From assembly GCF_003334315.1 (NCBI RefSeq), contig NZ_QOWR01000027.1: a DNA stretch of 57,499 nucleotides, one strand, 5' to 3'. The stretch is from Escherichia coli (GTDB taxonomy: Bacteria; Pseudomonadota; Gammaproteobacteria; Enterobacterales; Enterobacteriaceae). Positions 24,101 through 26,266 of this stretch are shown here, piece after piece. Made by a program: the position numbers. How positions within the stretch are numbered: position 1 is the stretch's first letter; every line of letters begins with the position of its first letter.

Positions 24101-26266
24101 GACATTAGCTGGCACTTCCTGACCAATGTTCAGCACACCTATGACCGGGAGAAAAAACTGGTGGAAAAATATGATGTCAGCACCACCGGAACGGGGGGCG
24201 GCGGTGGCGAATATCCATTACAGGATGGCTTTGGCTGGACCAATGGCGTGACGCTGAAAATGCTGGATTTGATCTGCCCGAAAGAGCAACCGTGTGACAA
24301 TGTTCCGGCGACGCGTCCGACCGTTAAGTCAGCAACGACGCAACCCTCAACCAAAGAGGCACAACCCACACCTTAACCAGCGCTTACTCCGACAACGTCA
24401 TTCGGCTTCTCCGGATGGCGTTGTCGGCAGATAACACCATAGCTATGGTTTTTTCTACACAGACGGTTTTTCAAGTCCTGGCGGGAAGTATTGCGCAAAT
24501 GTTTGCCATACGTGGTTGCCGAAGATAGCGTCATTTCTACGGGTAAGTGTTTCACTTTCATCACCCGGCGATTTACGCCGACGTTGGCTATATAAAGCAT
24601 CAATTGCTACCTGAATATTGTTACGGTGTTCACTCATCAACTTTTTTTTGCTTTCTGGAGTTAAATTAATAATCACATAATCCAGACACTCCAGAGAATT
24701 TAGCAACCAAAAAAAGAATTCAGACCATTCCTCTTCGCGTAACGGAAGCATTGCCGAACGGGTATTTTGGCTTAATCTGCCAGAAGGATTGATCAATTCT
24801 AAATGTTCAATAAGCGCAGCCAAAACCGCCTCACTATCCGCCCCATTTTTAACGCCTGACTGGCTACTGTCTAAAATATTTATTTTCTGAATCACACCAA
24901 AAACAACGAAACAATAATTAAAAAAGGATTCTGTTGTTGTTACCGGGAACCGACTTTATCGGATATCGAAGTGCTATATTGATTTTTTTCACCCGTAAAG
25001 CAGGTGTCGAGTATACGTTCTGATGTGAAAGCGGATAGCGGCATCTGTATCGCTATCCGCCTTATGAAAATCTTATTCTCTTCGCAGGAGGCGGAATATG
25101 CCCAGAACGAGAATAGCTCCCACCACCGCCACCAGGAAGCTGTGCAGATTAAAACCACTGATGGAGCCGCCAATGCCAAACATGGTCGCCAGCCAGCCGC
25201 CGACCACCGCACCGACTATCCCGAGAATACAGGTCAGGAAAAATCCACCACCATCACGCCCCGGCATGATTAGCTTGGCGATAATGCCGGCTATCAGGCC
25301 AAAAATAATCCAGGCAATAATTCCCATGTTCAGGCCCTCGTTTCGATGAATCGGACGCAAGAAATGCTTACGTCAACGCTCTAAGTATAGGCAAGGGCGG
25401 GATCGATGCTGGGCGTATGTCGGCTGATTTAAGAACAACATGTAAAAAATATTCACGCATTTGTATTAAGTTTTGTTAACTGTGACCGATAAACCAAAGA
25501 CAGTTTATCAGTCAGGAGTTTTTCCGCGTGAGTCATTACCATGAGCAGTTCCTGAAACAAAATCCGTTAGCCGTCCTGGGCGTGTTACGCGATTTGCACA
25601 AAGCCGCAATTCCTTTGCGTCTCAGTTGGAATGGCGGGCAGCTGATCAGCAAAATACTGGCAATAACCCCGGATAAACTGGTGCTGGATTTCGGCAGTCA
25701 AGCCGAAGACAACATCGCCGTGCTAAAGGCACAGCACATTACCATTACCGCCGAAACTCAGGGTGCGAAAGTCGAGTTTACTGTTGAACAACTACAGCAG
25801 AGTGAATACTTGCAGCTTCCGGCATTTATCACCGTACCGCCTCCCACCTTATGGTTTGTACAACGACGCCGATATTTCCGCATCTCCGCCCCACTCCATC
25901 CGCCTTATTTTTGCCAGACCAAACTGGCGGATAACAGTACGTTACGTTTCCGCCTGTATGATTTGTCGTTAGGCGGCATGGGCGCATTACTGGAAACAGC
26001 AAAGCCTGCCGAATTACAAGAAGGCATGCGCTTCGCTCAGATTGAAGTCAACATGAGGCAATGGGGTGTTTTTCACTTTGACGCCCAGTTAATCTCCATC
26101 AGCGAGCGCAAAGTGATTGATGGCAAGAATGAAACCATCACCACTCCCCGTCTGAGCTTCCGTTTTCTTAACGTCAGCCCGACGGTGGAGCGGCAATTAC
26201 AGCGGATTATTTTCTCTCTCGAGCGAGAAGCCCGGGAAAAAGCGGACAAAGTGCGCGACTGATTTA

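What the first reader, a model, noticed from the sequence alone, without database searches (positions are those of the whole stretch)
25430..25527. Strong sigma28 promoter upstream of ycgR
TAAGTTTT-N11-CCGATAA is a near-consensus FliA promoter, tying the c-di-GMP brake ycgR to the flagellar class 3 regulon. It is a useful internal control showing that regulatory signals in this window are intact.
Basis: partly seen in the sequence, partly recalled or inferred. Interest (0 to 1): 0.2.

Follow-up and report, generated by a model that had tools for sequence, protein, structure and literature searches.

The report
Known FliA promoter of E. coli ycgR
This is the already documented flagellar sigma factor (sigma-28/FliA) promoter in front of the E. 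coli flagellar brake gene ycgR; it is real, conserved across enteric bacteria, and ordinary.

Summary
TAAGTTTT sits at 25467-25474, followed by 11 nt, then CCGATAA at 25486-25492. This is 35 nt before the GTG start of ycgR at 25528. In the standard register it reads TTAAGTTT-N11-ACCGATAA, a 14/16 match to TAAAGTTT-N11-GCCGATAA. It is the only site in the window with two or fewer mismatches (0.06 expected by chance).

The window is E. coli chromosome (treA-ycgY-ymgE / ycgR / emtA-ldcA-cvrA). The 28-mer is letter-for-letter the FliA ChIP-seq site published for ycgR in K-12 (Fitzgerald 2014). That paper reports fold-above-threshold 67, RNA-seq 104 falling to 0 in a fliA deletion, and qRT-PCR 0.02x. 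RegulonDB lists it as ycgRp.

I found the same bipartite motif, always with an 11-nt spacer, upstream of ycgR in all 78 usable enterobacterial loci. The -35 and -10 are nearly invariant and the spacer is free.

Three caveats:
- "Strong" rests on published occupancy, not on sequence. A leave-one-out weight matrix scores this site low.
- The -35 parse is one base off the conserved register.
- In the sources I could read, the start site is inferred rather than mapped.

Verdict: already known, low interest.

The parts
25445..25450 (+). Conserved A-tract (AAAAAT here) about 50-55 nt upstream of the predicted start; a candidate UP-element-like sequence (inferred)
   Evidence: Information content is 0.9-1.6 bits per column across 78 unique orthologous promoters anchored on the -10. 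The tract is retained in the 6 loci that lack ymgE upstream.
25460..25465 (+). Conserved TTTGTA block directly upstream of the -35
   Evidence: Information content is 1.0-1.7 bits per column in 78 promoters.
25466..25473 (+). Sigma-28 -35 element TTAAGTTT (7/8 to TAAAGTTT)
   Evidence: T, A, A, G at positions 1, 3, 4, 5 are invariant or nearly so in 78 promoters. It is part of the published FliA ChIP-seq motif.
25474..25484 (+). 11-nt spacer, of fixed length but free sequence
   Evidence: Scored with an 11-nt spacer, every one of the 78 usable loci (79 promoters with the window) aligns. Allowing 10-12 nt, only L005 and L063 preferred 10. Interior spacer columns (positions 9 and 11-17) carry 0.03-0.27 bits; positions 8, 10 and 18 carry 0.92, 0.48 and 1.37.
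25485..25492 (+). Sigma-28 -10 element ACCGATAA (7/8 to GCCGATAA)
   Evidence: CCGATA is invariant in 78/78 promoters. G at the first position occurs in 73/78; A is a derived state in E. coli and Escherichia sp. E1V33.
25499..25500 (+). Predicted transcription start (G 25499 is the RegulonDB ycgRp +1; a conserved G/A pair)
   Evidence: The RegulonDB sequence with capitalised +1, carrying evidence codes HIPP/AIPP (inferred), is given in Table S3 of PMC4183435. G occurs in 56/78 and A in 64/78 at these columns. The position is 19-20 nt downstream of the motif centre, within the 18-22 nt range reported for mapped FliA promoters.
25499..25527 (+). Short 5' UTR (about 29 nt) with Shine-Dalgarno AGGAG at 25514-25518
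   Evidence: Read from the sequence. No significant fold was found (z = -1.1).
25528..26262 (+). ycgR coding sequence (244 aa, GTG start): c-di-GMP-binding flagellar brake
   Evidence: ORF. Pfam PilZN 9e-25 and PilZ 1e-8. RefSeq annotation. It is 100% identical to the protein of strain CP53 and differs from K-12 by two substitutions.

Best explanation
The stretch 25445-25527 is the sigma-28 (FliA) class 3 promoter and short leader of the E. coli gene ycgR.

RNA polymerase carrying FliA recognises TTAAGTTT (-35) and ACCGATAA (-10), separated by 11 bp. It initiates about 7 nt downstream, at or next to G 25499. The product is a leader of about 29 nt with an AGGAG ribosome-binding site, followed by ycgR. 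Because FliA becomes free only after the hook-basal body is complete and FlgM has been exported, YcgR is made together with late flagellar, motor and chemotaxis proteins. The c-di-GMP-responsive brake is therefore present only in cells that have working flagella.

Shown here: the motif, its position, its identity to K-12, and its conservation.
Taken from the literature: FliA occupancy and FliA dependence.
Inferred: the exact start site and a role for the conserved upstream A-tract as an UP-like element.
For: - The motif is the only hit in the window with two or fewer mismatches, against 0.06 expected. It lies in sense orientation, 35 nt before the ycgR GTG.
- No sigma-70-like promoter was found in 25000-26400.
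- The 28-mer is identical to the published FliA ChIP-seq site for ycgR: FAT 67, joint fifth of 52, with RNA-seq 104 falling to 0 in a fliA deletion. qRT-PCR gives 0.022x in the deletion, restored to 2.0x by pBAD-fliA. Microarrays give -17.5x and +3.3x. A genomic SELEX RpoF peak lies in the ycgR/ymgE spacer. RegulonDB lists ycgRp.
- Of the 20 intergenic -200..+10 lacZ fusions, 15 were FliA-dependent. The text reports no FliA-dependent activity for fliA, fliD and fliL, and names pntA and cvrA as fusions whose high background may mask it. If those five are the five non-significant fusions, ycgR is among the 15 by elimination (an inference).
- K-12 and the window are identical from -35 through -10.
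- All 5331 complete E. coli genomes that hold the stretch are at least 95% identical over 25455-25505, and 4003 are identical.
- Across 78 loci from about 30 enterobacterial genera, every ycgR has a 12-15/16 match 34-42 nt before the start. With an 11-nt spacer imposed, all of them align. Controls on the antisense strand and inside the coding region reach at most 12, with a mode of 10.
- The per-column profile is a classic footprint: the -35 and -10 are conserved and the spacer is free.
Against: - I could not read any experimental 5'-end mapping of the FliA-dependent ycgR transcript. RegulonDB's +1 carries only inferred evidence codes.
- The Cho 2014 TSS-seq set lists ycgR starts at K-12 positions 1243950 and 1244057 (window 25328 and 25221; 51 and 5 reads) and none at 1243779. 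I take this, from general knowledge and without a test, to reflect poor FliA expression in that MG1655 stock.
- A leave-one-out weight matrix ranks the site 31st to 46th of 52, below two unbound sites elsewhere in the window.
- Whether this particular strain is motile or expresses FliA is unknown.
Confidence: 0.95

Rival explanations
1. ycgR is transcribed mainly from promoters further upstream (sigma-70 or sigma-S type, inside or antisense to ymgE), and the sigma-28 motif contributes little.
For: The Cho 2014 TSS-seq set assigns ycgR starts at K-12 1243950 and 1244057, which correspond to window 25328 and 25221, and reports none at the sigma-28 position.
Against: Those starts have only 51 and 5 reads, against 1385 for the neighbouring ymgE start. 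ycgR mRNA falls to 0-2% in a fliA deletion and is restored by fliA in trans, so upstream promoters can supply at most a few percent in motile cells. No sigma-70-like promoter was found by the scan of 25000-26400. The sigma-28 motif, not the upstream region, is what is conserved across genera.
Confidence: 0.03
2. The motif is a chance match with no function.
For: By weight matrix, the site scores no higher than the best hit expected in a random 57-kb sequence.
Against: It is the only match in the window with two or fewer mismatches. It is correctly placed and oriented, occupied by FliA in vivo in K-12, and retained upstream of ycgR in all 78 usable enterobacterial loci; with an 11-nt spacer imposed, all of them align, while the spacer sequence drifts.
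Confidence: 0.01
3. The promoter is FliA-dependent but additionally controlled through the conserved upstream A-tract and TTTGTA block. These would act by binding a dedicated regulator or nucleoid protein rather than as a passive UP-like element.
For: Conserved blocks lie at 25445-25450 and 25460-25465 outside the sigma-28 elements. They persist even where ymgE is not the upstream neighbour. [quoted passage not shown]
Against: No factor is known or testable here. A/T-rich sequence at -40 to -60 is the usual signature of alpha-subunit contacts. Expression is fully accounted for by FliA in the published data.
Confidence: 0.1

Closest known systems
E. coli K-12 ycgRp (RegulonDB ECK120009895), a FliA/sigma-28 class 3 promoter
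   Same: The sequence is identical from the A-tract through -35, spacer, -10 and predicted +1. Gene order is the same (ymgE divergent, ycgR downstream). The 28-mer equals the published ChIP-seq motif.
   Different: There is one base difference in the 5' UTR (25508, A here and G in K-12) and one far upstream (25373). The encoded YcgR differs by L43I and G177R.
yhjH (pdeH) promoter, the FliA promoter of the c-di-GMP phosphodiesterase that opposes YcgR
   Same: Both are non-structural flagellar-regulon genes of the c-di-GMP motility circuit. Both have FAT 67 in ChIP-seq and are abolished in a fliA deletion.
   Different: yhjH has TAAAGTTC-N11-GCCGATAA (15/16) and about five-fold more transcript (511 against 104).
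Canonical class 3 promoters (tar, fliC, tsr, motA)
   Same: They share the bipartite architecture, 11-bp spacing and a start about 20 nt downstream of the motif centre.
   Different: ycgR is the only one of the 52 bound E. coli sites with T at -35 position 2. This deviation is conserved in ycgR promoters of other genera (69/78).

Membership tests
Sigma-28 (FliA) dependent class 3 promoter | Bipartite motif TAAAGTTT / GCCGATAA with an 11-bp spacer | tested here: met
   A 14/16 match at 25466-25492, the only hit in the window with two or fewer mismatches, against 0.06 expected.
Sigma-28 (FliA) dependent class 3 promoter | Intact CGA core within the -10 element | tested here: met
   CCGATA at 25486-25491, invariant in 78/78 orthologous promoters. 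The importance of the CGA core comes from general knowledge of sigma-28 promoters.
Sigma-28 (FliA) dependent class 3 promoter | Sense orientation and short distance to a downstream gene | tested here: met
   35 nt separate the -10 from the ycgR GTG. The range across genera is 34-42 nt.
Sigma-28 (FliA) dependent class 3 promoter | Motif conserved upstream of orthologues while the spacer sequence drifts | tested here: met
   All 78 loci score 12-15/16, and controls score at most 12. Column profile.
Sigma-28 (FliA) dependent class 3 promoter | Occupied by FliA holoenzyme in vivo | not testable with these tools
   Published for the identical sequence in K-12: ChIP-seq FAT 67 and a genomic SELEX peak.
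Sigma-28 (FliA) dependent class 3 promoter | Expression of the downstream gene requires fliA | not testable with these tools
   Published: RNA-seq 104 falling to 0; qRT-PCR 0.022x, complemented to 2.0x; array -17.5x.
Sigma-28 (FliA) dependent class 3 promoter | Mapped transcription start about 18-23 nt downstream of the motif centre | tested here: inconclusive
   RegulonDB's +1 (window 25499) is inferred only. One TSS-seq set lacks it and lists upstream starts. The dRNA-seq paper used by Fitzgerald 2018 is not held. Nothing was found in the stored Cappable-seq supplements.
Sigma-28 (FliA) dependent class 3 promoter | No direct FlhDC (class 2) input | not testable with these tools
   In PMC4183435 ycgR is mentioned only among FliA targets, not among FlhDC sites.
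YcgR-type PilZ c-di-GMP flagellar brake (downstream gene) | N-terminal PilZN (YcgR) domain plus C-terminal PilZ domain | tested here: met
   PF07317 at 9.3e-25 (residues 8-109) and PF07238 at 1.2e-8 (residues 112-229).
YcgR-type PilZ c-di-GMP flagellar brake (downstream gene) | RxxxR and D/NxSxxG c-di-GMP-binding motifs | tested here: met
   QRRRYFR and DLSLGG are present. The motif definitions come from general knowledge of PilZ domains.
YcgR-type PilZ c-di-GMP flagellar brake (downstream gene) | Binds c-di-GMP and slows the motor | not testable with these tools
   Established for K-12 YcgR (cited). This allele differs by L43I and G177R; residue 177 is variable among orthologues.
UP-element-like upstream A/T tract | Conserved A/T-rich sequence at about -40 to -60 | tested here: met
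   The A-tract at 25445-25450 and TTTGTA at 25460-25465 are conserved in 78 promoters.
UP-element-like upstream A/T tract | Stimulation dependent on the RNA polymerase alpha C-terminal domain | not testable with these tools
   No data available; this is inference only.

The most novel reading that the evidence does not exclude
The ycgR promoter carries a gene-specific, evolutionarily maintained departure from the sigma-28 consensus, namely T at -35 position 2. This base is absent from the other 51 FliA-bound sites in E. coli but present in 69 of 78 enterobacterial ycgR promoters. The promoter also has conserved upstream blocks (an A-tract and TTTGTA). Together these could set a deliberately sub-maximal or differently timed output of the brake relative to its antagonist yhjH/pdeH, or mark a site for an unknown regulator.
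Probability: 0.2. Interest if true: 0.2.

Novelty: already known. Interest (0 to 1): 0.05.

Why it matters
It matters little beyond annotation. The promoter is a documented member of the FliA regulon, and it explains why the c-di-GMP brake YcgR is made only in flagellated cells. For the scan, it confirms that this part of the window is ordinary E. coli core genome, with a regulatory site unchanged from K-12. The one mildly useful by-product is the comparative footprint. It fixes the register of the -35. It shows that the E. coli A at the first -10 position is derived. It also reveals conserved upstream blocks that could be tested as an UP-like element.

Tried and rejected
- **Weight matrix.** A leave-one-out matrix from the 51 other published FliA sites did not single out the site: 11.6-14.3 bits, and fourth or lower in the window. 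The cause was traced to two rare bases and the pseudocount. I therefore did not use the matrix as evidence for or against the promoter.
- **Mapped start site.** The Thomason dRNA-seq paper is not held. The bioRxiv version of Fitzgerald 2018 has no stored supplements. The Cappable-seq supplements hold no entry at 1243777-1243781 or under ycgR. Cho 2014 lists only upstream starts.
- **Sigma-70 promoters.** A scan of 25000-26400 found none.
- **Rfam.** A scan of the whole window found nothing in the ymgE-ycgR spacer.
- **5' UTR folding.** The fold is not better than shuffles (z = -1.1).
- **Palindrome at the start site.** A GACAGTCTGTC palindrome at the predicted start occurs only in Enterobacter-like genera and is degenerate here. 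It was rejected as a general feature.
- **Conserved A-tract and ymgE.** I tested whether the A-tract belongs to the divergent ymgE gene. It does not; it persists in 6 loci that lack ymgE upstream.
- **Perfect consensus.** No perfect 16/16 consensus occurs in any of the 82 loci held at that point.

Full report
**What is in the sequence.**
On the + strand the window reads ...catgtAAAAAAtattcacgcaTTTGTA TTAAGTTT tgttaactgtg ACCGATAA accaaaGAcagtttatcagtcAGGAGtttttccgc GTG.... Against the usual 16-nt sigma-28 consensus TAAAGTTT-N11-GCCGATAA, the best register is 25466-25492 with two mismatches. It is the only site in 57.5 kb, on both strands, with two or fewer mismatches. The expectation is 0.06, and 5 of 100 dinucleotide-preserving shuffles give any hit. 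With three mismatches allowed, two more sites appear, against 0.61 expected. The -10 octamer ends 35 nt before the GTG at 25528. An AGGAG lies at 25514-25518.

**What the locus is.**
The stretch 25330-25560 is 100% identical to E. coli strain CP53 and is present in 5331 of 5426 complete E. coli genomes. RefSeq annotation in CP53 and in a K-12 derivative gives the order treA, ycgY, ymgE (divergent), ycgR, emtA, ldcA, cvrA. The 244-aa ORF has PilZN and PilZ domains and the RxxxR and DxSxxG motifs. It differs from K-12 YcgR by L43I and G177R and is identical to the CP53 protein. From -35 through -10 the window is identical to K-12. The only nearby differences are one base in the 5' UTR (25508) and one at 25373.

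**Published evidence on exactly this sequence.**
- Fitzgerald et al. 2014 (PMC4183435), Table 2, lists TTAAGTTTTGTTAACTGTGACCGATAAA as the FliA ChIP-seq motif for ycgR. Fold-above-threshold is 67, joint fifth of 52 sites. Normalised RNA-seq expression is 104 in motile MG1655 and 0 in the fliA deletion, which is significant.
- Their Table S2 gives qRT-PCR of 0.022 relative to wild type in the fliA deletion (p = 1.5e-4) and 2.0 with pBAD-fliA.
- Their Table S3 reproduces RegulonDB's ycgRp with +1 at NC_000913.2 position 1243779. This is the G at window 25499. Its evidence codes, HIPP and AIPP, denote inference of promoter position, not mapping.
- Zhao et al. 2007 (PMC1935009) report b1194 (ycgR) at -17.5-fold in a fliA deletion and +3.3-fold five minutes after sigma-F induction.
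- Shimada et al. 2017 (PMC5493296) list a genomic SELEX RpoF peak in the ycgR/ymgE spacer.
- Fitzgerald et al. 2018 (bioRxiv 10.1101/188474) fused -200..+10 of all 52 sites to lacZ. Fifteen of the 20 intergenic fusions were FliA-dependent. The text reports no FliA-dependent activity for fliA, fliD and fliL, and names pntA and cvrA among fusions whose high background may mask it. If those five are the five non-significant intergenic fusions, ycgR is among the positives by elimination. This is my inference, because the per-gene values appear only in a figure.
- The same paper places mapped starts of well-characterised FliA promoters 18-22 nt downstream of the motif centre. That predicts 25498-25502 here.

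**My own comparative test.**
A profile of 15 YcgR orthologues retrieved 80 loci from one-genome-per-species contigs. They span Escherichia, Citrobacter, Salmonella, Enterobacter, Lelliottia, Kosakonia, Cedecea, Buttiauxella, Leclercia, Phytobacter and others, at 64-95% protein identity.
- Of the 78 loci with at least 200 nt of upstream sequence, every one has a sigma-28 match of 12-15/16 in the sense orientation, 34-42 nt before the start codon. Seventy-six of them prefer an 11-nt spacer, and the other two, L005 and L063, prefer 10.
- The same search on the antisense strand, or on 200 nt inside the gene, never exceeds 12 and usually gives 10.
- With an 11-nt spacer imposed and sequences anchored on the -10, positions 1, 3, 4, 5 of the -35 and CCGATA of the -10 are invariant or nearly so. 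Interior spacer columns carry 0.03-0.27 bits; the spacer positions flanking the elements (8, 10 and 18) carry 0.92, 0.48 and 1.37.
- Within E. coli, all 5331 genomes holding the region are at least 95% identical over 25455-25505, and 4003 are identical.

1. Register. The T at 25466 is invariant (78/78), while 25467 varies (T69, G7, A1, C1).
2. The T at -35 position 2 is found in none of the other 51 FliA-bound E. coli sites, yet it is the majority state in ycgR promoters of other genera.
3. The A at the first -10 position (ACCGATAA) is derived. E. albertii and almost all other genera have G.
4. Because of points 2 and 3, a leave-one-out weight matrix gives only 11.6 bits (all sites) or 14.3 bits (high-occupancy sites). 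That ranks the site 46th or 31st of 52. It also falls below two sites in the window that are not in the K-12 ChIP list: 6878-6905 inside lolB, and 40628-40655 between hlyE and ycgN. Random sequences of this length reach 14.6 bits on average. 'Near-consensus' is therefore true by mismatch count but not by matrix. 'Strong' is justified by occupancy, not by sequence or by transcript abundance (104, against 511 for yhjH, 630 for tsr and 2319 for fliC).
5. Two blocks outside the sigma-28 elements are conserved: an A-tract at 25445-25450 and TTTGTA at 25460-25465. They persist in the six loci where ymgE is not the upstream neighbour, so they belong to the ycgR promoter. Their position, about -35 to -55, suits an UP-like element. 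This is inference only.

**The start-site question.**
I could not obtain a mapped, FliA-dependent 5' end.
- The Cho et al. 2014 TSS-seq table assigns ycgR starts at 1243950 and 1244057. Using the conversion window = 25499 + (1243779 - K-12 coordinate), these fall at 25328 and 25221. They have 51 and 5 reads. The table lists none at 1243779.
- These reads are few compared with 1385 for the ymgE start at 1243901 (window 25377, minus strand).
- The near-total loss of ycgR mRNA in a fliA deletion bounds any FliA-independent contribution at a few percent in motile cells.
- I attribute the missing sigma-28 start in that data set to low FliA activity in the stock used. This is an assumption.
- The conserved G/A at 25499/25500 and the 18-22-nt rule support the RegulonDB position.

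**Mechanism.**
Shown or published: FliA holoenzyme binds this site, and ycgR mRNA depends on fliA. From established knowledge of the enterobacterial flagellar cascade, FlhDC activates class 2 genes including fliA. FlgM holds FliA inactive until the hook-basal body exports it, and then class 3 promoters fire. Placing ycgR under such a promoter couples synthesis of the c-di-GMP-responsive brake to the presence of finished motors. It does so in parallel with yhjH/pdeH, which keeps c-di-GMP low. Inferred: initiation at 25499/25500, a 29-nt leader with no significant structure, and an UP-like contribution from the A-tract.

**Novelty and score.**
Everything essential is already in RegulonDB and in three papers, for the identical sequence. 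The finding is correct and ordinary. Interest is 0.05. The only open points are the unmapped +1 and the meaning of the conserved non-consensus T and the upstream blocks.

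Noticed in passing
window 27909-27936 (+): This is an exact copy of the weak FliA ChIP-seq site listed for cvrA in K-12 (TAAGTAAAACGCTGTCTCTGCCGCTAAT, FAT 2, no FliA-dependent expression). 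It lies just upstream of the cvrA start at 27984.
   Followed up: partly
window 25370-25412 (-): This appears to be the divergent ymgE promoter. A -10-like TATACT sits at 25389-25384 on the minus strand. The Cho 2014 TSS at K-12 1243901 (1385 reads) converts to 25377. The block 25370-25398 is nearly invariant among Escherichia species. The two promoters sit back to back, about 55 bp apart.
   Followed up: partly
window 6878-6905 (+) and 40628-40655 (+): Two sigma-28-like sites outscore the ycgR site by weight matrix but are absent from the K-12 FliA ChIP-seq list. One lies inside lolB in the sense orientation. The other lies in the convergent hlyE-ycgN spacer and has a TTGATAA -10 that lacks the CCGA core.
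   Followed up: partly
window 25328 and 25221 (+): These are published low-count TSS-seq starts on the ycgR strand, inside or antisense to ymgE (K-12 1243950 and 1244057; 51 and 5 reads). They may reflect weak FliA-independent read-in to ycgR or antisense transcription of ymgE.
   Followed up: no
window 25654-25656 and 26056-26058 (YcgR codons 43 and 177): This YcgR allele differs from K-12 by L43I and G177R and is identical to the CP53 protein WP_000020163.1. Residue 177 is G, A, E, R or V among orthologues, so the change is probably neutral.
   Followed up: partly
window 25466-25467: T at -35 position 2 occurs in 0 of the 51 other E. coli FliA-bound sites but in 69 of 78 enterobacterial ycgR promoters. 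It is a conserved gene-specific deviation from consensus.
   Followed up: partly
window 25499-25509; L026, L033, L035 and others: Enterobacter-like genera carry a perfect palindrome, GACAG-T-CTGTC, at the predicted start site. It is GACAGTTTGTC in K-12, degenerate in this window (GACAGTTTATC), and absent in Citrobacter.
   Followed up: partly
proteins P0006-P0017: Several database YcgR entries from E. coli are 280-290 aa long. These are N-terminal extensions of 36-46 codons that would run across the promoter, and they are probably start-codon miscalls in strains lacking the upstream in-frame stop.
   Followed up: no
L083 (strain CUVET18-789) and L084 (strain 167): Single E. coli isolates carry insertion sequences in this promoter. 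One has an IS1380-family remnant inserted at about window 25451/25452, between the A-tract and the -35. The other has IS903B inserted after about window 25494, between the -10 and the start site, uncoupling ycgR from its FliA promoter.
   Followed up: partly
window 134-199 and 669-734 (-); 39348-39426 (-): Rfam matches found two rdlD antitoxin RNAs (the ldr/rdl repeats) and the C0299 sRNA next to hlyE. These are the expected K-12-like features of this chromosomal region.
   Followed up: no
E. coli genome collection: Twelve matches to the ycgR upstream stretch are on records labelled as plasmids, and 95 of 5426 genomes lack the stretch altogether.
   Followed up: no
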